From Minisyncoccia bacterium (GTDB lineage Bacteria > Patescibacteriota > Minisyncoccia > Phycocordibacterales > UBA918), in NCBI GenBank assembly GCA_046293175.1, contig JBKBPM010000001.1, positions 593,408-657,407 on the forward strand: a DNA stretch of 64,000 nucleotides, read 5' to 3'. This document shows, piece after piece, positions 6,131 through 34,325 of this stretch (position 1 is its first letter; the number at the start of each line of letters is the position of its first letter). A model generated the notes under the pieces. It was not told the origin of the DNA and searched no databases. It worked only from the letters and a program-made list of their open reading frames with translations. The translations under genes were made by a program, and so were the position numbers.

Positions 6131-7381
6131 TCAGGTCAGAATCAATGTCCCCAACCCCAGGAGGCAGGCAAATCCTAGTACATCAGTAGCTGTCGATATA
6201 AACACCATTGAAGGAGTAGCGGGGTCATAGCCGAAGTGCTTGATGACAAGTGGTACCAAAGCACCAAAAAATCCGGCAACGAGATGAACCATTACCATAG
6301 AGAGACCAACCACGAGACCAAGCAGCCACGAACCATTCCACAAAAGTGACACCGCAGCAACAATAAGCCCAATGACCGCGCCACTATAGAAACTACCAAT
6401 TAATTCGCGTTTAACAGCTGGCCAGGCATTTTCGAGCGATATGATACCAAGTGTAATACCACGCATGGTCACAGCGAAGGTTTGACTTGAAGCATTGCCA
6501 CCCATCCCAGCGACAATCGGCATATACACAGCGAGTAATGCTAACTTATCTATCGTGTCATTAAAGGCTAACACGACACCGCCAGCCATGAAGGCTGTCA
6601 TGAGGTTCACAACCAGCCATGGAATACGGTTTTTGAACTTCATGACAGCAGTATCAAATGGCCGCTCACTACTGACGACTCCCGTAAAGGAATAGAGGGA
6701 TTCAGCCGGCATATGCCCAAAGAGATCAAGAGCATCATCGGCATAGATAATTCCGAGCACACTCTCATCATTATCAAGCACGACCACCTTTCGCTTGCCC
6801 GATCCAGTGAGTGCACTAATGATGTCGCCAACTTCAGCCTGGTAGGAAATAGTGGTAACCGGCAGGATAAATTTACTTAAGGTCAAATTACTTCGCTCTT
6901 TCACCAAAACTCCGAGTGGTACTTCACCTTTTAATATGCCGGCATCATGAACGAGAATTTCGGGGAATTTACCCGTTTCTTCATAATGCATTTCCATGAT
7001 ATCCCCCGCTTCAGCAATGGTGGTCGACTCTGGAACAAAGACGTAGTTGAAATGCACTAACGAAAACGAAGCCTTAGGATGAAAGCGCAAAAAGAATTCG
7101 ACTTTGTCTTTGATATCAGCCTTGAGTGCTCCGACAATTTTCTCACGACGTTTCTGATCTTTGATACGCATGACAAGACGCTGTGCCGCTTGTAAGTCCA
7201 TATGGTCGAGAATATCAACCACCTCACGATCAGTTAATTCTCGAAGTACCTGCTGCTGCACATACGCCGAAACCGATTGCAAAATAACACTTTGCTCACC
7301 GATTGAGAGACTTCGCAAAAGCGCTACACGCTCTTCTGGACGGTAGGTTACCTGTTTGGCGTATGTCGCTACCTCAGTCAT
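6131..7381 (-). CDS. mgtE: Magnesium transporter MgtE
   Basis: MgtE N-domain, tandem CBS domains, and the C-terminal MgtE TM domain (…GMGGNASSQTFAV…). Confidence 0.85.
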   Translation of the reverse strand: MTEVATYAKQVTYRPEERVALLRSLSIGEQSVILQSVSAYVQQQVLRELTDREVVDILDHMDLQAAQRLVMRIKDQKRREKIVGALKADIKDKVEFFLRFHPKASFSLVHFNYVFVPESTTIAEAGDIMEMHYEETGKFPEILVHDAGILKGEVPLGVLVKERSNLTLSKFILPVTTISYQAEVGDIISALTGSGKRKVVVLDNDESVLGIIYADDALDLFGHMPAESLYSFTGVVSSERPFDTAVMKFKNRIPWLVVNLMTAFMAGGVVLAFNDTIDKLALLAVYMPIVAGMGGNASSQTFAVTMRGITLGIISLENAWPAVKRELIGSFYSGAVIGLIVAAVSLLWNGSWLLGLVVGLSMVMVHLVAGFFGALVPLVIKHFGYDPATPSMVFISTATDVLGFACLLGLGTLILT

Positions 7382-7389
7382 GTGTGTGG

Positions 7390-8313
7390 TTAGATAAGCA
7401 CCTCAACTTCCGCATCTTTCTTGAGTGTATCAATGTACTCACTAATAAGCTCTTGTTGCTTACCGTAACGAATTTCTTGTTCTACTTGTGCTCGCACTTC
7501 TTCAAGTGGTGGTACTTGGACCTCTGGATTACTGGTAACACTCTTGTAAAAGGCATCAACCTCTTCTTTGGTTACCTCAATTTTAGACAGGTCAATCGTA
7601 GCATCAAGATGTGTCTGGATGAGTATTTCATCTTCGATATCTTGCATCAGACCATCTTTGGTGATGTTGAGTTCTGCCATACGGCTCGCGAGAGCTTCTT
7701 CCCCACCCTGTGCGTCAACAATACCTTGGTACCGTGAAGTGATTTGTTCATCAGTGACGACAATACCGGCATTGCGCGCCGCCTGCTTCAAAAGCGCACT
7801 GTTTACGAGCACATCAATGGTCTGCTTTTTGATTTGTTCAGTGGTAGCTGGATCGGTAACATTGGCCCCTTGTGAGGCTGCTTGCAACGAGAGTTGTTCG
7901 TAGTTTTTTTGATACAAAGACTGTGGGATTTTTTCTCCATTTACCTTTACCGCAGCTGGTTCTAGTCTCACCAATGAAGTGATTTTATCAAATACGCCAG
8001 TCTCCACTCGTCCTTGCTTTTCGAGCAGGTACCACAAGACACCACCCATAATCGCAACGATAAAAAAGGCAATACCGTACTGCTTTAACACAAGACTGCG
8101 GGTGACTGCTACAGCAGCGGTTGGAGCAGCTCCGGCAGCAGACATTACTGGTGGATTGGTGGACACACTGGTATCAGTAGACACAGTAACTGGAGTCGCT
8201 TCAGGTGAAGAAACAGTCTCAGTTGTCGCAACAGTGGTTTCTGTAGTAGAAATAGTCTTTGTAGAATCAGCCGATGTTGGCTGTGGCGTAGACGTGTTCG
8301 TAGGTTCTTGCAT
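7390..8313 (-). CDS. SurA N-terminal-domain chaperone-like protein with a Thr/Ser-rich N-terminus and a TM anchor
   Basis: Low-complexity T/S/P-rich N-terminus, one TM helix, and a SurA_N/PpiD-like helical domain. No obvious PPIase domain. Confidence 0.45.
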   Translation of the reverse strand: MQEPTNTSTPQPTSADSTKTISTTETTVATTETVSSPEATPVTVSTDTSVSTNPPVMSAAGAAPTAAVAVTRSLVLKQYGIAFFIVAIMGGVLWYLLEKQGRVETGVFDKITSLVRLEPAAVKVNGEKIPQSLYQKNYEQLSLQAASQGANVTDPATTEQIKKQTIDVLVNSALLKQAARNAGIVVTDEQITSRYQGIVDAQGGEEALASRMAELNITKDGLMQDIEDEILIQTHLDATIDLSKIEVTKEEVDAFYKSVTSNPEVQVPPLEEVRAQVEQEIRYGKQQELISEYIDTLKKDAEVEVLI

Positions 8314-26264: not shown

Positions 26265-26562
26265 GCAATAATCATGACACCTCCCTACCTGCCCGGCAAT
26301 AGGCTGTGGTGCACACTGATTTTACTGTCTACAACTGTACGCCAGCACCGAGGTTCATATCAGCCTACGTTGAATTCGGACTGATGAGACCAAGAGATAT
26401 ATGCCCATAGCGTATACATGCCGAGCAATAAAACAGTGATACCGAAAAGTATCAGAAGCGTCTTAAAAAAATCTTGAATGGCTTGCTCATGTATTCCATA
26501 ATTTTAACTTAAATAAAGCCATCTATATAGTAGGACAAAAAAGTGACCGAGTAATCGGTGAC

Positions 26563-26616
26563 TTTTTTGTCTGGTTACTGCTCTCAGCAGGTATGCAATT
26601 TCTCGGAATAGTACCT
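26563..26616. repeat. Left copy of a roughly 51-54 bp direct repeat that brackets the accessory island
   Basis: ttttttgtctggttactgctctcagcaggtatgcaatttctcggaatagtacct versus 42666-42716 tttttgttctggctactgctctcagcaggtatgccttttcagaatagacct (about 85% identity). In each copy it begins in the T-tract of a different terminator hairpin. A shared 13-mer gacgcgtctcgtg lies at 26819-26831 and 42730-42742. Confidence 0.6.
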
Positions 26617-26888
26617 ATGATTTCTACCGAAACTTAAGGAGTCTAGGACACCCCCTTTAGAGAGTTCGTGCCCATGACTCGTTCTTAAAATGCTTTGGAA
26701 AATATAACGATTTTAAGAGTCTCGATAGCTCTCACTTGATTGCTGGCCGTCTCGTGTTAGAACCGTGGCCGGTCAAGCCCTGCTTACTCCGTTTGGCTTC
26801 GTTTTAGGTCCTTGGAACGACGCGTCTCGTGTGCTTCAAAAAGTGACAAAAGTGACACAGGGAGGCACCTGAAAGTTACACGCTACTG

Positions 26889-27296
26889 TCACCTTCTCCT
26901 GTAGTGCGTTCGTACTCCCGTGGTTAACAAAATGAACCCAACGATCGAAAAAGAGACTATATAAACAATCGTTGCAATGATTGGAAAGTAATCGTTTGCA
27001 TATAGTTCAGGCCCTCCGATCAGGCCAATGACGAATAGGATCCCGAAATAGAAATAGTTGTAGAGAACGCTTCCTAGTACTCGCCACCTGCCTGTGATTA
27101 AGTACCTTGCTATGGCGTATATCAAAATAGCAATCAGGGCACCTAGTGTTGCTAACCAGTGCTGCACTAAGAACGAAAGAAGTATCTCCCAGAAAACACG
27201 GTAGGTATGGATAGTCGCTTCCGCAACACCGTTCATGAGTGTCTCCAAGGATTCCTTTACGAAGTCAGGACCAAGCGGTGTGGAAGTTGAGTTCAT
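26889..27296 (-). CDS. Small polytopic membrane protein; third gene of the CBASS-like operon
   Basis: 135 aa with three or four TM helices. Its start is 3 nt after the SLATT-like stop. Confidence 0.5.
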   Translation of the reverse strand: MNSTSTPLGPDFVKESLETLMNGVAEATIHTYRVFWEILLSFLVQHWLATLGALIAILIYAIARYLITGRWRVLGSVLYNYFYFGILFVIGLIGGPELYANDYFPIIATIVYIVSFSIVGFILLTTGVRTHYRRR

Positions 27297-27298
27297 TT

Positions 27299-27793
27299 CT
27301 ATGCAATCGTTTCTTCTCGCTTAGCGAGCTTCTTCACTGCCTTTTGGTAAGCCCATTCCTCTGTTGGAGGAGTAAGTAGGATGAGCTGGTTATATGCCTC
27401 AGAAAGCTTGCACACTTCCTTATACAATTCCTGCTCCGAGTGGAAGGACGCGAATGACTCATGTAGCGCACGCGCCCTATGCTTCACAACTGTAAAGCTT
27501 TTGGCCGAGTTCAAGTTCTCGTAGTACGACTTATGCGGACTTACAATACTGCTGGTCGCCGTAACAACGGCAGAGACAACGGTGAGCCAGCCCCACCATG
27601 CGGGTATCGCCTGCCCTACAACGAGCAAGCCAGAGAGTGAAGCGATGATCGCGGGAACGACCTCAAACCAGAAAGCCATTGTCTTGCTCCTCGACGCGAG
27701 TATGTGGTGCGCTTCAGCAGTGTGTCGCGCATTGTCCTCGATCGTCTGACATTCCTTTTTTAAGTTATCAATATTATTCATAAGTTGATCCAA
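27299..27793 (-). CDS. SLATT-like 2TM effector protein
   Basis: 164 aa with an N-terminal helix, two adjacent TM helices (AFWFEVVPAIIASLSGLLVVG / WWGWLTVVSAVVTATSSIV), and a C-terminal helical region. It overlaps the nucleotidyltransferase stop by 20 nt, which suggests translational coupling. Confidence 0.55.
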   Translation of the reverse strand: MDQLMNNIDNLKKECQTIEDNARHTAEAHHILASRSKTMAFWFEVVPAIIASLSGLLVVGQAIPAWWGWLTVVSAVVTATSSIVSPHKSYYENLNSAKSFTVVKHRARALHESFASFHSEQELYKEVCKLSEAYNQLILLTPPTEEWAYQKAVKKLAKREETIA

Positions 27794-29126
27794 TTGGTAC
27801 TAATACTTTGCCGATAGCAACGCATACATTGTCCTTCACGACGTAACACTCGACGTAGTGTTCGCCATGGTAGAGCGTGCTCTCTGTCTTCTCCTGTGAT
27901 CCCGCATCGGGAGTAATCTCACCACGCAAGCCGTCGGCTTTCTTGGCTTCTTCTCCGAAATTGCGGACTTTCCAAAAAATGCGGTACGGACCAGGCACAT
28001 TTATCTTCTGCACGCGGAACTTCAGCTTCTTTCCTTTCAGCAAAGGAAAACGCTTCTGAAGGAAGTCGGTGAGCCAGCCCGTCCGAAAGCCGTTTTGGGT
28101 AACTTCTGCGTCTATGGATACTTCGTACCCAGAAAATAACCTGGTCGGTATGCCATATTTGCTCTCAAGGAATTCTTCTTTCGCAGATGGATACTCGCGC
28201 GTTAGCTGTGCGATCTTGTCTGGAATCGGATCCACCGCAATCGCACGATCAGCCACCGTCGGGAAGTCTGCACCAAATATCTTCTGCCACTCGAGAGATG
28301 CGTCACGCAACTTATCCGCAGCTTCGTACTCGATTGCCTTCTCAGCACGAGAAACAGCCGAATCGACCCGCGAAGCCCATGCGTCTCCGAGGCTGATCGA
28401 CTGGCTAGAGCCGAGCGAGTGGACTAAACCATGACGCTTTGACCGAAGATACTCGAAGAATCCGAGCACGAGTTGTGGGTACCGCTCGTTCACTTGGTTG
28501 TTGTATCTGTCGCGCAGGTAATCAATGACGAGAATCTCAAGAATGTATGACTTGAGCGGAACGCCACAATTCCTCACCCACGCCTTAAGCATACGAACGA
28601 GCGACTTCGTGTGCTTCGTCTGCGTACTTGAATCATGAATCGCCTTGATCTCTGCGCTCGGGTTCCATATGTCCCACGATCCGCCCTTCTCGGTATTTGG
28701 AATGCGATATTCGCCTGAGGGCAGTCGCCATGCGGGAAGAAGCTCGACAGTATGCGTGCTTTCCGCGAAGCTAATGAGGATCACCTTGCCCCACGCCTTT
28801 ATGCCTTCTGTCGTACTGAATCGGTCTTTCAAAATACCTCGCACTTCCTGAAGTAGTTGGGACTGCTTGTTTCCGCTGAGAGCGTCGAACCGCGCAAACT
28901 CAGAGTCTGGCATCTTGAAGAGCAGATCAATGTCTTTCGGGGGACGAATATTCGTGTGCTTACCATACGAACCGATGAGGAGCTTCGTGCTTCCATCGTA
29001 GGTAGTCGTCGGGTAGTACTTGCCATGCAAAGTTTCAGAGACGTTCTTGATCTTCGTCTCAGCGTCCGCCTTTTGTGGGTCGGTTAGCTTGATGTTCTCT
29101 AAAAATTTGCGAAAGGCGGAATCCAT
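27774..29126 (-). CDS. cGAS/DncV-like (SMODS/CD-NTase) nucleotidyltransferase with a C-terminal extension of about 150 aa
   Basis: Pol-beta NTase motif GSYGKHTNIRPPKDIDLLF (GS…DxD) with the third acidic residue near …HTVELLP…. A helical domain follows, then an unassigned C-terminal domain. Confidence 0.7.
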   Translation of the reverse strand: MDSAFRKFLENIKLTDPQKADAETKIKNVSETLHGKYYPTTTYDGSTKLLIGSYGKHTNIRPPKDIDLLFKMPDSEFARFDALSGNKQSQLLQEVRGILKDRFSTTEGIKAWGKVILISFAESTHTVELLPAWRLPSGEYRIPNTEKGGSWDIWNPSAEIKAIHDSSTQTKHTKSLVRMLKAWVRNCGVPLKSYILEILVIDYLRDRYNNQVNERYPQLVLGFFEYLRSKRHGLVHSLGSSQSISLGDAWASRVDSAVSRAEKAIEYEAADKLRDASLEWQKIFGADFPTVADRAIAVDPIPDKIAQLTREYPSAKEEFLESKYGIPTRLFSGYEVSIDAEVTQNGFRTGWLTDFLQKRFPLLKGKKLKFRVQKINVPGPYRIFWKVRNFGEEAKKADGLRGEITPDAGSQEKTESTLYHGEHYVECYVVKDNVCVAIGKVLVPIGSTYE

Positions 29127-29192
29127 AATGTAATTCCTCTATTTTATTACATTTGACGAGGAGGAGCGAATGTCCTGAAAAAAGTCTATAAT

Positions 29193-29603
29193 ATGGGCAT
29201 GGAGTATCGACTCGAAGCAAAACCTACGGTCCTCGAGAAGGGGCAAAAGTATCGAATAATTCAGATCACTGATGTCGCGCATCACACAGCAAAGAAAACT
29301 CCTACCCCTTCCGTAGGCAAGAAAATAGAGAAAACGCCTGACGCAACGCCTGGACGAATCTACAGGCCTACGGATTTAGGTGTAGTACTTGATCCTAAAG
29401 CGTATATCCTCAAAATGCTCGGGGAGGACCCAGATTTCCAAAAGCTTGTGCGGGACGAGGCAGCAAAAGGGGTAAAGGTTGTCCTTGCCTTTCCCAAGGA
29501 CGGTGTCCCGGCAGAGTACGGAAAAGACACGATTGAGTTTCTGAAAAGTAAGAACGGCAAGCGTGTGCTTCGAGGGCTTGCCAAGGAAAAGCGTGAGGAA
29601 TAA
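29193..29603 (+). CDS. Hypothetical Lys-rich protein, divergent from the CBASS-like operon
   Basis: 136 aa with no recognisable domain. Candidate regulator or phage protein. Confidence 0.35.
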   Translation: MGMEYRLEAKPTVLEKGQKYRIIQITDVAHHTAKKTPTPSVGKKIEKTPDATPGRIYRPTDLGVVLDPKAYILKMLGEDPDFQKLVRDEAAKGVKVVLAFPKDGVPAEYGKDTIEFLKSKNGKRVLRGLAKEKREE

Positions 29604-29771
29604 AATAGTGACATAGCGTAGTAAAAAGTAGAGTAGCGTATCGCCTTCTGGCCATGCCTATTCCGCGCAAGAAGTGAGTTGAGGTTATCGAGCCTCTTCC
29701 TCGTTTCGTGTGTGGAATAGGCCTTTTCTATATCCATACATCCTTACAAATCGTAACGGTTTTAAAGGAGT

Positions 29772-31055
29772 ATGAAAAAACTCTCATGGACGACGGTCCA
29801 AAAACGTGTAAACGATCTCATTCCCCAGGAGATCAATCCCCGCAAGATCAGCGACAAGCAGATGTCCGATCTCAAGCGGAGCCTTAAGAAGTTCAATCTG
29901 GTGGAGATCCCTGCCGTGGATTATGACGGCACCATTCTCGCAGGACACCAGCGCATCAAGGCGCTCCAGCTTCTTGAGCGCGGAGACGAGACAATCGACA
30001 TCCGTGTGCCGAATCGCAAGCTTACGGAAAAGGAAGCCAAGGAATACCTGATCGGCTCTAACAAGCTCGGCGGAGACTGGGACTTCGACATCCTGAAGTC
30101 CTTTGAACTCGACACGCTCTCATTCGCTGGATTCGATGATATGGAGCTTGCGAAGTTCTGGGACAACGATAACGAGACCAAAGAGGATTCGTTCGATATC
30201 GAGAAGGAGCTGAAGAAGATAACCGATCCCAAGACAAAGCTCGGCGACATCATCCATCTCGGCAAGCATAAGATCCTCTGCGGGGACTCGACTGACCCAA
30301 AGAACCTTGCGCGCCTCCTCGGTGAGGAGCGAGCCAGCATGATTTACTCAGATCCCGTCTACAACATCTCTATCGACTACGACGGAGGCATCGGCGGAAA
30401 GAAGGACTACGGAGGAAACGTGAACGACACGCGTACCTACGAGGAGTACAAGGGGTTCATCAGAGATAGTCTCACAGCCGCACTCGCGGTTTCCTCTCCC
30501 AATACTCACGTCTTCTACTACTGCGATCAGGTCTACATCGGCTTGATTCAAGAAATCTACCGCTCGCTTGGCATCGCGAACAAGCGCGTATGCCTGTGGC
30601 TCAAGAACTCGCAGAATCCCGTACCGAAGGTGTACTGCAACAAGGCATACGAACCTGCCGTATACGGCACGCGCGGAAAGCCATACCTTGCCGAAGCTGT
30701 AAGCGATCTCAACGAAGTGATGAATAAGGAGTTCACCACCGGCAACGAGCTGGTGACGCAGGTCGATGACTTCCTTGAAATCTGGACGGCAAAGCGACTT
30801 GCCGCGAAAGACTACAAGCACGCTACGTCAAAGCCGATCACGCTCCACGAGAAAGCGATCAAGCGTTGCACGAAGCCGAATGACATTATTCTCGACAGTT
30901 TCCTCGGTTCGGGCAGCACCCTCTTGGCCGGAGAACAGCTCGGACGACGCGTATACGGTTGTGAGCTTGAGCCAAGGTTCTGCGACCTGATCGCGGCTCG
31001 CTTCGAGGCGCTTACTGGAATTAAGCCGGTCATCGAACGCCATGAAGAAAAATAA
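29772..31055 (+). CDS. ParB-like N-terminal domain fused to an N6/N4 DNA methyltransferase (phage-type orphan MTase)
   Basis: ParB_N region (…EIPAVDYDGTILAGHQRIKALQL…). MTase motif IV-like IYSDPVY. Motif I region TSKPITLHEKAIKRCTKPNDIILDSFLGSGSTLLAG. Confidence 0.8.
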   Translation: MKKLSWTTVQKRVNDLIPQEINPRKISDKQMSDLKRSLKKFNLVEIPAVDYDGTILAGHQRIKALQLLERGDETIDIRVPNRKLTEKEAKEYLIGSNKLGGDWDFDILKSFELDTLSFAGFDDMELAKFWDNDNETKEDSFDIEKELKKITDPKTKLGDIIHLGKHKILCGDSTDPKNLARLLGEERASMIYSDPVYNISIDYDGGIGGKKDYGGNVNDTRTYEEYKGFIRDSLTAALAVSSPNTHVFYYCDQVYIGLIQEIYRSLGIANKRVCLWLKNSQNPVPKVYCNKAYEPAVYGTRGKPYLAEAVSDLNEVMNKEFTTGNELVTQVDDFLEIWTAKRLAAKDYKHATSKPITLHEKAIKRCTKPNDIILDSFLGSGSTLLAGEQLGRRVYGCELEPRFCDLIAARFEALTGIKPVIERHEEK

Positions 31056-31515
31056 ATTCCAGAAGCAGTTTTTAGACGAACTGCGGAAAGTCCCGATTGT
31101 ACAGGTCGCGTGCGAGAAGACAGGACTTTCCCGCAACAGCGTATACCGTTGGCGAAACGAAGATGCTGAGTTCCGCAAGGCAATGGAAGAGGCCATCGCC
31201 GAGGGCGAGGAGCTCGTTAACGACATGAGCGAAGGACAGCTCCTCACGCTTATCAAGGAGAAGAATTGGTCAGCGATCAGCTTCTGGCTCCGCAAGCGTA
31301 ATCCGAAGTTTAAGGACCGCATTGAGGTGGAAGTCGCGCCGAAACAGGAAGAACTTACGCCCGAACAGGAAGAGACGGTGCGCGAGGCTCTTCGCCTTGC
31401 CTCTATGGATCCCATTACCAATCTAAAAGAAGCCAATCATGGAACACAGCCCGCTACCGCCTCATCTGATGGAAACGATGATGAAGGATCGGAAAGTACG
31501 AACGGCAATCACTAA
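31042..31515 (+). CDS. Phage terminase small subunit-like HTH protein
   Basis: HTH (…ACEKTGLSRNSVYRWRNEDAEFRKA…) with an acidic C-terminus. It lies directly upstream of, and overlaps, the TerL gene. Confidence 0.5.
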   Translation: MKKNKFQKQFLDELRKVPIVQVACEKTGLSRNSVYRWRNEDAEFRKAMEEAIAEGEELVNDMSEGQLLTLIKEKNWSAISFWLRKRNPKFKDRIEVEVAPKQEELTPEQEETVREALRLASMDPITNLKEANHGTQPATASSDGNDDEGSESTNGNH

Positions 31516-32911
31516 GGAAAGCCACTGGTACTTCTTCCACTTCTACTTTGCCCACTATGTGAAGTATCCGACAGCCCCGTTCCAGAAGGAACTTATGGGA
31601 CTTTCGGAACGTGAGGATGTGAAGAATCTCGTCGTGGTTGCCTTTCGTGGATCGGCAAAGTCCACGATCTTCACCATGTCCTATCCGATCTGGGCAATCC
31701 TTGGAAAGCAACAAAAGAAGTTCATCGTCATCCTCTCACAGACTCAGGCTCAGGCTAAGCAGCACATGATGAACCTGCGACGCGAGCTTGAAAATAATAC
31801 GCTTCTCAAAAGTGACCTAGGATCGTTCCAAGAAGAGCGAAACGAATGGGGCGCGACATCCCTTGTGTTCGGAAGACATGGTGCGCGCATCACAGCTGTT
31901 TCGACCGAACAGAGCGTTCGCGGTCTGCGCCATAACCAGCACCGCCCCGATCTGATCATCGGAGACGACCTAGAAGACATCGCTTCGACCAAAACACGCG
32001 AGGGTCGCAACAAGACGTATGAGTGGCTCACGGGAGAAGTGATTCCTGCTGGAGACCGAAACACGAGGCTCATTGTGATTGGAAACCTCCTGCATGAGGA
32101 CTCGCTCATCATGCGGCTCAAGGAAGACATTACTGACAAGCGCATTGATGGAATGTTCCGAGCGTACCCACTTATGGAGGGGCAGAGCATCCTGTGGCCG
32201 GGAAAGTACCCAACCATGGAGGATATCGAAGAGGAACAGAGAAAAGCGGCGAACGACTATGCGTGGCAGCGAGAATATCTCCTCAATATTGTTCCAGCCG
32301 AAGACCAGGTTATTGATCCCGCATGGATTCAGTACTACGACGAAATTCCGCCTCGTGTAAGGGTCTTCAAAAACGACACCTACATGACGAATCTGGAAGT
32401 ACGTATCGGTGTCGATCTTGCGATCTCAAAGAGGGACACCGCCGACTATACCGCGATGATCCCAGCTCTCCTTTACGAGGCGAAAAAAGGATACGACATC
32501 TATATTCTTCCGAAGATCATCAACAAGCGACTTTCCTTCCCTGAGACGGTTGAGACATGCAAGATCATACACAACTCGTATAAGGATGTTCCGCACTGGA
32601 ATGGTCCTGTGTTCGTGATCGAGGACGTGGCGTATCAGAGTGCGCTACCTCAACAGCTCAAGGCGGAAGGGCTTAGGCAGATACACACCGTAAAGCCAGG
32701 AAATACCGATAAGCGTGCGCGCCTCATGCTTACCGCGAACTTGATTAAGACTGGTGTCGTGAAGTTTCCGCGACAAGGAGCGGAGCAGCTAATCCAGCAG
32801 ATCGTACACTTCGGTGTCGAGAAGCATGATGACCTCGCGGATGCTTTCTCTGCCCTTGTCTTGGACGCACTTGCCGACCCGCCAAGTACGTTTCGTATTT
32901 TCTTTATTTAA
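31469..32911 (+). CDS. Phage terminase large subunit
   Basis: ATPase Walker A-like AFRGSAKST and Walker B LIIGDDLED. C-terminal RNaseH-like nuclease motifs (…VDLAISKRDTADYTAM…; …HDDLADA…). The start is uncertain between 31439 and 31481. Confidence 0.8.
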   Translation: METMMKDRKVRTAITKESHWYFFHFYFAHYVKYPTAPFQKELMGLSEREDVKNLVVVAFRGSAKSTIFTMSYPIWAILGKQQKKFIVILSQTQAQAKQHMMNLRRELENNTLLKSDLGSFQEERNEWGATSLVFGRHGARITAVSTEQSVRGLRHNQHRPDLIIGDDLEDIASTKTREGRNKTYEWLTGEVIPAGDRNTRLIVIGNLLHEDSLIMRLKEDITDKRIDGMFRAYPLMEGQSILWPGKYPTMEDIEEEQRKAANDYAWQREYLLNIVPAEDQVIDPAWIQYYDEIPPRVRVFKNDTYMTNLEVRIGVDLAISKRDTADYTAMIPALLYEAKKGYDIYILPKIINKRLSFPETVETCKIIHNSYKDVPHWNGPVFVIEDVAYQSALPQQLKAEGLRQIHTVKPGNTDKRARLMLTANLIKTGVVKFPRQGAEQLIQQIVHFGVEKHDDLADAFSALVLDALADPPSTFRIFFI

Positions 32912-33005
32912 GAGAATATGTGCAAACTACTTAAAGCGACCATGCGACGTTTTCTTAGTTCTGCATAGTCTATGCACCACCAACTGGTCTGGCATCAATA
33001 TACAT

Positions 33006-34325
33006 ATGCGAACGGATCAAATTTCAGCCCTTATTGGGCAGGCACCTGTCATACCTACAACAAAGGTTAAATACGTCCTGTATGCCCGAAAATCGACCGA
33101 GCAGGACGAGAAGCAGGCACTATCTATCGAATCCCAAGTAAAGGAAATGTTGGCGATAGCGGAACGAGAAAATCTTGAAATTGTAGATATACGCAGAGAA
33201 GCACATTCGGCCAAAGATTCAGGACAGCGACCAGTGTTCAAAGAAATTCTTGAGGATGTACGAAGAGAACGATTTAATGGAATTCTAGTATGGCATCCAG
33301 ACCGTCTAAGTAGAAATGCTGGCGATCTTGGATCTGTTGTAGATCTAATGGATCAGAAGCTCTTAGTACAGATACGCACTTACGGACAAACGTTCACAAA
33401 CACACCAAGCGAGAAGTTTCTTTTGATGATTCTCTGTTCTCAAGCAAAGCTAGAGAATGATAATAAAAGTATTAACGTAAAGAGAGGTCTCAAGACTAGA
33501 GTTGAAATGGGACTATGGCCTGCCCCTGCCCCAACAGGCTATCTCAAAGAAAAACGAATAGATCGAAAGTGCGAGACCCTAATAGATCCAGACCGAGGAC
33601 CAATCATCAGAAAAGTATTTGAGAAGGTCGCTTATGAAAAGTGGTCAGGACGAAAGGTATACAACTGGCTAAAGTTTGATCTCAACTTCAAGACCGCTGC
33701 TGGAAATAAAAATCTAACGGTGAGCAACATTTACTGCATTCTAGAGAATCACTTTTACTACGGTGTATTTGAATATCCCAAGAACTCTGGAAATTGGTAT
33801 CAGGGAAAGCATGAGCCTCTAATCACTAAAGAGCTATTTGAGCAGGTTCAAGAGCAAGTAAAAAGCCAATTCGTCAGGTCTGAAGGTAAGGAGTTTGCTT
33901 TTACTAAACTTATGACCTGTGGCTTATGCGGGTCAGGCATTACAGCCGACGAAAAGTTCAAGAAGCAGAAGAACGGCAATATACACCGGCACGTTTACTA
34001 CGGCTGCACCAAACGGAGAGATCCGAACTGCAAATGTGGCTATATCAACGAAATAGATCTCATTAAGCAATTTGAGGACTTAATGGATGTCATTGATATC
34101 GACGAAATCGGCATTAAAGAAAAGATGAAGAATGAGATTGAACGATTCAAGAAATTCCAGAGAATATTTTTAGGAAAATCTATTCAGGTAACAGTGGCAG
34201 ATGTAGATATACGCAATTACTCTAAATATTTGTTGAGGGAGGGTAAAGATATAGAGAAACGCGAACTACTCGGTTGTCTTAAAGGTCAAATTTTACTCCA
34301 ACACAAAACGATTTCGCTTAAATAA
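33006..34325 (+). CDS. Large serine recombinase (resolvase/invertase-type catalytic domain, recombinase domain, zinc ribbon)
   Basis: Catalytic region KYVLYARKSTEQDE…LSIESQ, a recombinase domain, and a Cys cluster CGLCGS…YYGCTKRRDPNCKCG. The start was chosen at MRTDQ. Confidence 0.85.
   Translation: MRTDQISALIGQAPVIPTTKVKYVLYARKSTEQDEKQALSIESQVKEMLAIAERENLEIVDIRREAHSAKDSGQRPVFKEILEDVRRERFNGILVWHPDRLSRNAGDLGSVVDLMDQKLLVQIRTYGQTFTNTPSEKFLLMILCSQAKLENDNKSINVKRGLKTRVEMGLWPAPAPTGYLKEKRIDRKCETLIDPDRGPIIRKVFEKVAYEKWSGRKVYNWLKFDLNFKTAAGNKNLTVSNIYCILENHFYYGVFEYPKNSGNWYQGKHEPLITKELFEQVQEQVKSQFVRSEGKEFAFTKLMTCGLCGSGITADEKFKKQKNGNIHRHVYYGCTKRRDPNCKCGYINEIDLIKQFEDLMDVIDIDEIGIKEKMKNEIERFKKFQRIFLGKSIQVTVADVDIRNYSKYLLREGKDIEKRELLGCLKGQILLQHKTISLK

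What the first reader, a model, noticed from the sequence alone, without database searches (positions are those of the whole stretch)
26889..29126. CBASS-like three-gene operon: cGAS/DncV-like nucleotidyltransferase, SLATT-like 2TM effector, and an extra small membrane protein, carried on a phage-like island
The three genes form a translationally coupled minus-strand operon. The first (27774-29126) has the Pol-beta NTase GS…DID signature of SMODS/CD-NTase enzymes and an unassigned C-terminal domain of about 150 aa that could be a sensor. The second (27299-27793) has the SLATT-type architecture. The third (26889-27296) is a polytopic membrane protein not expected in canonical two-gene type I CBASS. 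The architecture with a third TM partner may be unusual. The phage-like context (ParB-MTase, terminase, serine recombinase next door) suggests element-borne defence or superinfection exclusion.
Basis: partly seen in the sequence, partly recalled or inferred. Interest (0 to 1): 0.8.

Follow-up and report, generated by a model that had tools for sequence, protein, structure and literature searches.

The report
Ordinary two-gene CBASS plus unrelated rider gene
The first two genes are a standard two-gene anti-phage alarm system (type I CBASS) carried in the swappable defence slot of a small mobile element of Patescibacteria. The third small membrane gene is not part of it, but an optional rider that follows dozens of unrelated defence systems in related elements.

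Summary
The three overlapping or abutting minus-strand ORFs are real. Gene 1 (27774-29126) is a CD-NTase: a SMODS core with catalytic GS...DxD...E, plus a C-terminal Ig-like AGS-C domain. Gene 2 (27299-27781) is a SLATT_4 2TM effector. Together they form a mainstream type I CBASS. About 40% of type I cyclases carry AGS-C, and an NTase/AGS-C + SLATT pair has been shown to be antiphage in Lactococcus.

Gene 3 (26889-27296, a 3-TM protein with no family or fold match) is not a CBASS component. Its homologs, found almost entirely in Patescibacteria, sit as the last, tightly coupled gene behind at least 30 different upstream protein families. These include another CBASS (Cap15), Thoeris, type I RM, KAP, NACHT and STAND NTPases, PDC-S06, E1/E2 systems, a HEPN protein, or CapH/CapP alone. 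Conversely, NTase+SLATT orthologs (63-83% identity) occur without it, twice on the same ParB-MTase/terminase/serine-recombinase backbone.

The island (about 26741-34325) is therefore a satellite-like integrative element with a variable defence slot, and gene 3 is an optional terminal module of unknown function. The CBASS itself is ordinary. The slot and the gene 3 family are modestly interesting.

The parts
27774..29126 (-). CD-NTase (CBASS cyclase), 450 aa: SMODS/CD-NTase core (res 2-290) plus C-terminal AGS-C domain; catalytic G52-S53, D65, D67, E128
   Evidence: Pfam SMODS 5.4e-27 and AGS_C 1.7e-40. PADLOC Cyclase PDLC00796 4.6e-118 over the full length. Aligns to PDB 6P8U/6P82/6P8J over res 2-289. 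Catalytic columns are conserved in 121 homologs, with E128 in 118 of 121.
27792..28181 (-). AGS-C domain (res 316-445) of the cyclase: immunoglobulin-like beta-sandwich, putative phage-sensing or specificity module
27299..27781 (-). SLATT_4-type 2TM effector, 160 aa from the ATG at 27781 (the longest ORF starts at TTG 27793); overlaps the cyclase stop by 8 nt
   Evidence: NCBIfam SLATT_4 7e-18, 64.9 bits against a cutoff of 55. PADLOC 2TM effector 1.6e-17 and RTasSLATT 2.7e-22. Pfam SLATT_4 is only 0.0058. Hydrophobic hairpin at about res 37-82. Orthologs at 73-83% identity follow NTase orthologs with the same 8-nt overlap.
26889..27296 (-). Gene 3 ('g3'): 135-aa, 3-TM protein (predicted N-out/C-in, basic C-tail). 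An optional terminal module of the defence slot, not a CBASS component
   Evidence: No hit in Pfam, PADLOC, NCBIfam or PHROGs. 110 representatives among 1.84 billion proteins; nearly all are stand-alone and about 120-135 aa long, a few up to 210 aa, with no separate fused domain seen. Model pLDDT 83, all helical, no PDB fold match. Topology. Context survey.
26740..26861 (-). Conserved non-coding terminal block of the element, core TGTCACTTTTGTCAC at 26843-26857. Homology to other elements ends at about 26741, the probable element end or a protein-binding region
   Evidence: blastn to many loci, alignment A2. The block follows SLATT directly in the g3-less elements L069 and L072. No Rfam family and no covariation. 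The core is unique in the window.
29127..29192 (.). 66-bp divergent intergenic region between the cyclase and u136; presumed promoter region of the CBASS-g3 operon
   Evidence: Sequence read directly. Inference only; the consensus scan placed no promoter here.
29193..29603 (+). u136: conserved backbone gene of unknown function that flanks the cargo slot on the other side
   Evidence: No family hits. Homologs sit divergently upstream of different cargo in L018, L056, L060, L063, L067, L068, L069 and L076.
29772..31055 (+). ParB-like N-terminal domain fused to an N6/N4 DNA methyltransferase (element backbone)
   Evidence: Pfam N6_N4_Mtase 4.5e-30. PHROG 498 at 7e-82 and ParB-like PHROGs. Recurs in 19 g3 loci.
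31042..31515 (+). Terminase small subunit (backbone)
   Evidence: PHROG 4044 at 1.5e-12.
31439..32911 (+). Terminase large subunit (backbone)
   Evidence: PHROG 38 at 6.6e-82.
32814..34325 (+). Large serine recombinase (integrase) at the other end of the island. The true start is probably downstream of the GTG at 32814
   Evidence: Pfam Resolvase, Recombinase and Zn_ribbon_recom. PHROG 95 integrase at 1.7e-62.

Best explanation
Genes 1 and 2 form a canonical two-gene type I CBASS. By inference from the families, phage infection activates the CD-NTase, probably with its Ig-like AGS-C domain shaping which phage cue is sensed. The enzyme (GS...DxD...E active site) makes a cyclic oligonucleotide from NTPs. 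That signal triggers the SLATT_4 two-helix membrane effector to damage the inner membrane, killing or arresting the cell before the phage matures.

This pair occupies the variable defence-cargo slot of a satellite-like integrative element about 7.6 kb long (roughly 26741-34325). The element carries a serine recombinase, TerL, TerS, ParB-MTase and u136, and is found in Paceibacteria and other Patescibacteria.

Gene 3 is a separate, optional module. It is a small 3-TM protein that rides as the last, co-translated gene behind whatever defence operon fills the slot, just inside the element's conserved terminal block. It is dispensable for both the CBASS and the backbone. Its own function is not shown. 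My best guess, at low confidence (about 0.3), is a self-contained membrane-acting protective or exclusion factor, or a toxic effector, expressed together with the cargo.
For: CBASS identity: family matches, catalytic alignment, AGS-C fold. A lactococcal NTase/AGS-C + SLATT (PF18186) pair is antiphage (PMC11381338). About 40% of type I cyclases carry AGS-C, and 2TM/4TM effectors predominate (bioRxiv 10.1101/2023.05.21.541620).

g3 without this CBASS: about 60 loci show g3 after at least 30 different upstream protein clusters. These include CD_NTase_C+Cap15, S24+TIR, ThsA-Macro+TIR, CapH+CapP alone, HEPN, E2 and HsdR+YgjP, KAP NTPases, RelA/SpoT, PDC-S06, type I REase and ThiF/E1, a 1366-aa STAND-like protein and a 1632-aa NACHT protein on the same backbone.

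This CBASS without g3: L069, L070/L071, L072 and L074 have NTase at 63-83% and SLATT at 73-83% identity but no g3 at hmmsearch E<=10. In L069 and L072 the terminal block follows SLATT directly.

Junctions and context: DNA homology to elements with other cargo resumes at or just inside g3 (in L067 2 nt before the ATG) and ends at about 26741. The cargo-g3 junction has a median gap of 2.5 nt, and 68% are 15 nt or less against 45% for control same-strand pairs (p=0.006). Downstream of g3 the median gap is 139 nt. Backbone genes occur in 16 of 27 loci with at least 5 kb of upstream flank.
Against: No experiment here shows nucleotide synthesis, effector activation or phage defence. The cyclase scores below the cutoffs of the two NCBIfam CBASS-cyclase equivalog models (112.7 and 57.2 against 200), and Pfam SLATT_4 is below its gathering score.

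g3 is translationally coupled to SLATT, and the trio is kept in relatives at 86-96% identity, so a local functional interaction cannot be excluded. g3 divergence does not track ParB-MTase divergence (rho 0.15, Mantel p 0.14), and 11 of 27 well-flanked loci show no backbone gene within 8 kb, so g3 is not simply a backbone gene. The functional guess for g3 rests on context only.
Confidence: 0.8

Rival explanations
1. One reading: g3 is a true third component of a novel three-gene CBASS, for example a membrane partner or modulator of the SLATT effector.
For: Two-nt spacing and probable translational coupling. The trio is conserved in L076 and in the 96%-identical relatives.
Against: Double dissociation. 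In all six NTase-ortholog loci sampled at 63-83% identity, g3 is absent; five of them keep SLATT, and two share the ParB-MTase/u136/serine-recombinase backbone. In about 60 g3 loci from the genome and metagenome scans, none carries an ortholog of this NTase, and only L021 has a distant (25%) NTase relative several genes upstream.
Confidence: 0.05
2. g3 is a generic accessory that functionally serves many different defence systems in Patescibacteria. It would be analogous to how CapH/CapP regulators attach to diverse systems, but act at the membrane, for example as a shared executioner or amplifier, or as a sensor of envelope or pilus perturbation.
For: g3 is almost always the last gene of a defence operon and is more tightly coupled than control gene pairs. 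It is associated with at least 30 cargo types. Its divergence is uncoupled from the backbone's.
Against: Many of the cargos are systems known to be self-sufficient elsewhere: type I RM, Thoeris, and CBASS with their own effectors. The same cargo works architecturally without g3. L063 has CapH-CapP-g3 with no other cargo.
Confidence: 0.15
3. g3 is a holin-like or lysis- or transfer-related membrane protein of the satellite-like element, unrelated to defence.
For: Small size, three TM helices, predicted N-out/C-in topology and a highly basic C-terminus. It lies on an element that carries terminase genes.
Against: No endolysin or spanin is adjacent in any locus examined. g3 is optional for the backbone (L069, L072). 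It is transcribed with defence cargo, not with the terminase genes. The holin-like features are generic.
Confidence: 0.1

Closest known systems
Type I CBASS with a CD-NTase-AGS-C fusion and a SLATT/2TM effector (for example the lactococcal pUCCL631_167/168 pair, PMC11381338, and EcCdnF04-SLATT6, bioRxiv 10.1101/2023.05.21.541620)
   Same: Two-gene operon. The cyclase has a GS...DxD...acidic active site plus a C-terminal Ig-like AGS-C domain. The effector is a SLATT-family two-helix membrane protein. There are no Cap2/Cap3 or HORMA/TRIP13 genes.
   Different: The host is a Patescibacteria (CPR) bacterium. The third catalytic acid is Glu rather than Asp throughout this subfamily (118 of 121). 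The cyclase scores below the NCBIfam equivalog cutoffs, so it belongs to a divergent subfamily. The nucleotide product is unknown.
Hotspots of antiviral systems in P2-like phages and P4-like satellites (Rousset et al. 2022, PMC9122126), and immune cargo in PICI-type satellites
   Same: A small integrative, phage-related element with conserved flanks and one locus where unrelated defence systems replace each other.
   Different: The backbone is different (large serine recombinase, TerS+TerL, ParB-MTase, no capsid genes), and so is the host phylum. The slot is capped by an optional conserved small membrane gene (g3) and a conserved terminal DNA block. Helper dependence is untested.
CapH/CapP regulator pair attached to diverse immune operons (bioRxiv 10.1101/2022.04.27.489752)
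   Same: Like g3, this is a small module that recurs next to many unrelated defence systems. CapH/CapP homologs head some of the g3-terminated operons (L001, L024, L056/L060/L063).
   Different: CapH/CapP are cytoplasmic transcription regulators at the 5' end of the operon. g3 is a membrane protein at the 3' end with no known biochemical role.
EcPycC AGS-C domain (PDB 9ARD)
   Different: It is fused to a Pycsar cytidylate cyclase rather than a CD-NTase. No ligand or function is established for either.

Membership tests
CD-NTase / SMODS (CBASS cyclase) | Significant match to SMODS/CD-NTase profiles over the whole catalytic core | tested here: met
   Pfam SMODS 95.5 bits (cutoff 26.5), PADLOC cyclase 4.6e-118, alignment to PDB CD-NTases over res 2-289.
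CD-NTase / SMODS (CBASS cyclase) | Pol-beta NTase catalytic motif G[G/S] ... [D/E]h[D/E] ... [D/E] | tested here: met
   G52-S53, D65-I-D67, E128. The DxD aligns with the D-to-N mutated positions of 6P8J. The columns are invariant or near-invariant in 121 homologs.
CD-NTase / SMODS (CBASS cyclase) | NCBIfam equivalog models CBASS_cyclase_a and CBASS_cyclase_b score above cutoff | tested here: not met
   112.7 and 57.2 bits against a cutoff of 200. The protein is a family member by Pfam and PADLOC but lies outside these two narrow equivalog groups.
CD-NTase / SMODS (CBASS cyclase) | Synthesis of a cyclic di- or tri-nucleotide | not testable with these tools
   Needs enzymology with LC-MS.
AGS-C domain | Pfam PF18134 match and an Ig-like beta-sandwich fold | tested here: met
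   138.4 bits. Model pLDDT 92.9 with top PDB hit 9ARD.
SLATT (family 4) 2TM effector | Profile match above the curated threshold | tested here: inconclusive
   NCBIfam SLATT_4 scores 64.9 bits, above its cutoff of 55, and PADLOC 2TM effector models reach 1.6e-17. Pfam PF18186 scores only 16.8 bits against a cutoff of 27. On balance I count it a member.
SLATT (family 4) 2TM effector | Two adjacent TM helices flanked by helical N- and C-terminal regions, encoded next to a SMODS gene | tested here: met
   One strong hydrophobic window at res 41-59, plus a second, less hydrophobic stretch read from the sequence at about res 62-82 that falls below the scan threshold. It overlaps the cyclase gene, and the pairing is conserved in orthologs.
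Type I CBASS (two-gene) | Cyclase plus effector only, with no Cap2/Cap3 (E1/E2/JAB) or HORMA/TRIP13 genes in the operon | tested here: met
   The operon holds only the cyclase, SLATT and g3. The neighbours are u136, ParB-MTase and terminases. u136 is a backbone gene that also occurs with non-CBASS cargo.
Type I CBASS (two-gene) | Protection against phage | not testable with these tools
   Needs heterologous expression and phage challenge. The hosts are uncultivated.
CBASS accessory (Cap) gene, applied to g3 | Co-occurrence with CD-NTase genes across relatives | tested here: not met
   Among about 60 surveyed g3 loci, none carries an ortholog of the window's NTase+SLATT. One locus (L001) carries an unrelated CBASS, and L021 has only a distant (25% identity) NTase relative several genes upstream. 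The trio itself was seen only in the window and L076. All six NTase-ortholog loci at 63-83% identity lack g3.
Holin, applied to g3 | Small TM protein with a charged C-terminus, encoded next to an endolysin in a lysis cassette | tested here: not met
   The size, 3 TM helices and basic C-tail fit, but no lysin is adjacent in any locus, and there is no PHROG hit.
Defence hotspot of a phage-related integrative element | Conserved flanks with mutually exclusive, mostly defence-related cargo between them | tested here: met
   The u136/ParB-MTase side and the g3/terminal-block side are conserved, and the cargo varies.
Phage satellite (PICI/P4-like in the broad sense) | Integrase plus packaging-hijack genes, no virion structural genes, mobilised by a helper phage | tested here: inconclusive
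   A serine recombinase, TerS and TerL are present, and no capsid or tail genes lie within 26741-34325. Helper dependence cannot be tested, and no g3 relatives were found in IMG/VR.

The most novel reading that the evidence does not exclude
g3 defines a new, Patescibacteria-restricted family of small 3-TM proteins. It would be either a stand-alone membrane defence or exclusion factor, or a shared membrane module used by many defence systems. Together with the conserved terminal block, it marks a previously undescribed defence-cargo slot in minimal terminase-bearing integrative elements. The unannotated cargo proteins in that slot would then be candidate new defence systems of CPR bacteria: the roughly 369-aa 'cluster 6' protein, and the 347-aa, 1104-aa and 1192-aa proteins.
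Probability: 0.3. Interest if true: 0.65.

Novelty: new member of a known kind. Interest (0 to 1): 0.4.

Why it matters
The CBASS itself adds little. It is another AGS-C/SLATT type I system, notable only for sitting in an uncultivated CPR lineage and for a subfamily-wide Asp-to-Glu change at the third catalytic position.

The context is more useful. It shows that a tight, translationally coupled gene can be a positional passenger and not a component of the system, which is a caution for defence-system annotation by operon structure. It also exposes a family of small serine-recombinase/terminase/ParB-MTase elements in Patescibacteria whose single slot cycles through many known and unknown defence systems. 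That slot, flagged by g3 and the TGTCAC-repeat block, could be mined for new immune genes in a phylum whose phage defence is poorly charted.

Tried and rejected
1. RNA gene in the conserved block downstream of g3: no Rfam match, and RNAalifold gave 8 pairs, no compensatory change and -2.5 kcal/mol. Rejected as a structured RNA on that strand.

2. tRNA or tmRNA target at the element end: none found in the window near 26.7 kb or in 10 related loci.

3. Terminal direct or inverted repeats bounding the island: only short matches at chance level. The TGTCAC core is unique in the window.

4. g3 as a strict backbone gene: the test of congruence with ParB-MTase was negative (rho 0.15, p 0.14), so I describe g3 as an optional module instead.

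5. Remote homology or fold for g3: there were no family hits in four libraries. The profile search found only small proteins of the same family, nearly all stand-alone. No PDB fold match. The afdb50 library was unavailable.

6. g3 relatives in viral contigs: none. The NTase gave only one distant (35% identity) viral hit.

7. The SLATT protein against solved structures: only a spurious low-complexity hit.

8. The published version of the type I CBASS screen (PMC11239291) was not held, so I used the preprint.
Full report
**Observation.**
- The cyclase ORF (27774-29126) ends at TAA 27776-27774.
- The next ORF can start at TTG 27793 or ATG 27781. The ATG gives an 8-nt overlap, identical to the overlap called in orthologous loci, so I take 27299-27781 (160 aa) as the gene.
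- Gene 3 (g3, 26889-27296) starts 2 nt after the stop of gene 2.
- Upstream, a 66-bp divergent spacer separates the cyclase from a plus-strand gene, u136.
- Downstream of g3 there are about 620 nt without a gene before pilB, including a bidirectional terminator hairpin at 26534-26571.

**Genes 1 and 2.**
- *Cyclase family match.* The 450-aa protein matches Pfam SMODS (res 2-165, 5e-27) and AGS_C (res 316-445, 1.7e-40). It also matches a PADLOC CBASS cyclase model end to end (4.6e-118). It falls below the cutoffs of the two NCBIfam CBASS-cyclase equivalog models, so it is a divergent subfamily.
- *Catalytic residues.* Against solved structures it aligns over res 2-289 with 6P8U, 6P82 and 6P8J. 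The 6P8J chain carries N-I-N where the query has D65-I-D67, which marks the catalytic pair. The third acidic position (D in 'SVDAVPAF') aligns with E128 in 'TVELLPAW'. From memory, not checked here, these entries are a Pseudomonas CdnD. Across 121 homologs G52, D65 and D67 are invariant, S53 is near-invariant (120 of 121), and position 128 is E in 118 and D in 3. The Glu is a subfamily trait, not a lesion.
- *SLATT effector.* The 160-aa protein passes NCBIfam SLATT_4 (64.9 bits, cutoff 55) and several PADLOC 2TM-effector models. It misses the Pfam SLATT_4 threshold. It has a central hydrophobic hairpin.
- *Literature.* About 40% of type I CBASS operons encode a CD-NTase-AGS-C fusion. 2TM and 4TM effectors are the commonest partners, AGS-C correlates with phage-family specificity, and a CdnF-SLATT6 operon is strongly protective (bioRxiv 10.1101/2023.05.21.541620). 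A lactococcal plasmid pair, an NTase/AGS-C protein of 408 aa with a PF18186 SLATT protein of 190 aa, was confirmed as antiphage (PMC11381338).
- *Conclusion.* Genes 1 and 2 are a mainstream type I CBASS.

**Gene 3 as a protein.** g3 has no hit in Pfam, PADLOC, NCBIfam or PHROGs.
- A word-indexed search found 28 relatives, the named ones from Paceibacterota/Parcubacteria MAGs.
- An exhaustive profile search found 110 representatives among 1.84 billion proteins. Nearly all are stand-alone proteins of about 120-135 aa; a few run to 210 aa, but the match is always the same ~130-residue unit and no separate fused domain shows up.
- The family has a near-invariant GRWxxLGSVLYNYFYFG core.
- The AlphaFold model (pLDDT 83) is all-helical, with an N-terminal amphipathic helix and three TM helices. 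It has no PDB fold relative.
- Charge distribution predicts N-out/C-in topology with a basic C-tail.

**Gene 3 in context: the decisive evidence.** I fetched about 60 loci encoding g3 relatives from genome and metagenome collections. They come from Paceibacterota, Saccharibacteria, Wolfebacteria, Staskawiczbacteria, Adlerbacteria, Moraniibacteriota and others, plus one bin labelled Gammaproteobacteria. I also used targeted look-ups. In these loci g3 is the last same-strand gene behind at least 30 different upstream protein clusters:

| Cargo upstream of g3 |
|---|
| A different CD-NTase + Cap15 |
| S24 repressor + ThsB-TIR clusters |
| ThsA-Macro + TIR |
| Type I REase + YgjP |
| KAP NTPases (PifA/QatA-like) |
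| 996-aa RelA/SpoT-domain protein |
| PDC-S06 (3.9e-129) |
| ThiF/E1 and E2-like proteins |
| HEPN protein |
| 1632-aa NACHT protein |
| 1366-aa STAND-like protein |
| Several proteins with no annotation (369, 347, 1104 and 1192 aa) |

- In L063 the operon is just CapH-CapP-g3.
- The cargo-g3 junction is tight: the median gap is 2.5 nt, and 68% are 15 nt or less, against 45% of control same-strand pairs in the same loci (Fisher p=0.006). The junction after g3 is loose, with a median gap of 139 nt.
- ParB-MTase, TerS, TerL or a serine recombinase appear in 16 of 27 loci with at least 5 kb of upstream flank. They are usually on the opposite strand just beyond the cargo, which is the window's own architecture.

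**The reciprocal test.** NTase orthologs at 63-83% identity were examined in L069, L070/L071, L072, L073 and L074.
- L069, L070/L071, L072 and L074 carry the SLATT ortholog (73-83% identity). L073 retains only a 40-aa SLATT remnant.
- None has g3, with no hit to the g3 profile even at E<=10.
- L072 has the same SerRec-TerL-TerS-ParB-MTase-u136 backbone as the window, and L069 shares the serine recombinase, TerS, ParB-MTase and u136 (no TerL gene is called there). In both, the conserved terminal block follows SLATT after about 65-80 nt. In the window and in L076 (86% identity) g3 sits between SLATT and that block.
- At the DNA level, homology between the window and elements with other cargo (L067, L068, L001, L004) resumes at or just inside g3; in L067 it starts at 27298, 2 nt before the g3 ATG. 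It runs to about 26741.
- g3 is therefore a discrete, optional module, separable from both this CBASS and the backbone.
- Its divergence does not track that of ParB-MTase (rho 0.15, Mantel p 0.14). I therefore do not call it a backbone gene in the strict sense.

**The island.** From the homology end at about 26741 to the serine recombinase stop at 34325, the window holds only g3, SLATT, the cyclase, u136, ParB-MTase, TerS, TerL and the recombinase. It is flanked by pilB/pilC on one side and a P-type ATPase with copper-oxidase genes on the other.
- There are no capsid, portal or tail genes, so the element looks satellite-like. Helper dependence is untested, and no relative was found in IMG/VR.
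- Related elements sit next to copper-ATPase or pilus genes too.
- The closest described concept is the antiviral hotspot of P2 phages and P4 satellites (PMC9122126).

**Mechanism.**
- *Shown:* domain composition, intact catalytic residues, the effector's membrane hairpin, operon coupling and the comparative dissociation.
- *Inferred from family knowledge:* phage infection activates the cyclase, with the Ig-like AGS-C domain plausibly tuning which phage cue is sensed. A cyclic oligonucleotide is made and activates the SLATT effector, which permeabilises the membrane (abortive infection).
- *For g3:* I commit only to 'an independent, optional membrane module co-expressed with whatever cargo fills the slot'. 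Its recurrent position in defence operons, and the CapH-CapP-g3 operon, suggest a self-contained protective or toxic membrane function (about 0.3).
- *Rivals:* a generic accessory shared by many systems (0.15), a holin-like element function (0.1), or a true CBASS partner (0.05).

**Verdict.** The CBASS is a new member of a known kind. The g3 family, the terminal block and the CPR element slot are undescribed as far as my searches show and deserve moderate interest.

Noticed in passing
window 26740-26861 (minus strand); also L067:9449-9567, L068:6299-6425 and 7117-7208, L069:8863-8888, L072:8074-8192: A conserved non-coding block of about 120 nt at the element end. It has an invariant direct-repeat core (TGTCACTTTTGTCAC) and two CACGAGACG repeats, and homology to other elements stops sharply at about 26741. 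In some loci (L059, L054, L040, L053, L058) extra genes lie between g3 and the block, suggesting a second variable slot. L068 has two copies. There is no Rfam hit and no covariation. It may be an att-proximal site or a binding site for the recombinase, ParB or TerS.
   Followed up: partly
window 29547-29780: The 3' end of u136 plus the u136/ParB-MTase intergenic region is 85-87% identical to L067 and L068, while the surrounding backbone coding DNA is only about 72-75% identical. This non-coding stretch is unusually conserved and may be a regulatory, pac or ori site.
   Followed up: no
window 26741-34325: The island encodes TerS, TerL, a ParB-MTase fusion and a large serine recombinase but no capsid, portal or tail genes. 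It is a minimal, satellite-like element that recurs across Patescibacteria, often next to copper-ATPase or type IV pilus genes.
   Followed up: partly
L003:4895-6004 (also L011, L054, L058, L031, L032, L042, L061): A protein of about 369 aa ('cluster 6') with no Pfam or PADLOC hit is the most frequent neighbour of g3 (9 loci). It sometimes lies upstream and sometimes downstream of g3. It is a candidate unknown defence gene.
   Followed up: partly
L063:6212-7435 (CapH 6212-6556, CapP 6540-7046, g3 7043-7435): A stand-alone CapH-CapP-g3 operon with overlapping genes and no other cargo. This suggests that g3 can itself be the payload regulated by CapH/CapP.
   Followed up: partly
window 29185-29195: The u136 ATG is immediately preceded by TATAAT, which may indicate a leaderless transcript from the 66-bp divergent promoter region shared with the CBASS operon.
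   Followed up: no
window 28743-28745 (codon for E128 of the cyclase): The third catalytic acidic residue is Glu rather than the usual Asp in 118 of 121 members of this AGS-C-bearing cyclase subfamily.
   Followed up: yes
L073:7001-9177: An NTase ortholog (67% identity) retains only a 40-aa SLATT remnant and faces convergent E2-CBASS and JAB-like genes. This looks like an example of effector or accessory turnover around the same cyclase.
   Followed up: no
L074:8898-9242 and L072:8334-8738: In two g3-less loci, unrelated small multi-TM proteins (114 and 134 aa) lie downstream of SLATT. They are not homologous to g3, and it is unknown whether they are host genes or analogous riders.
   Followed up: partly
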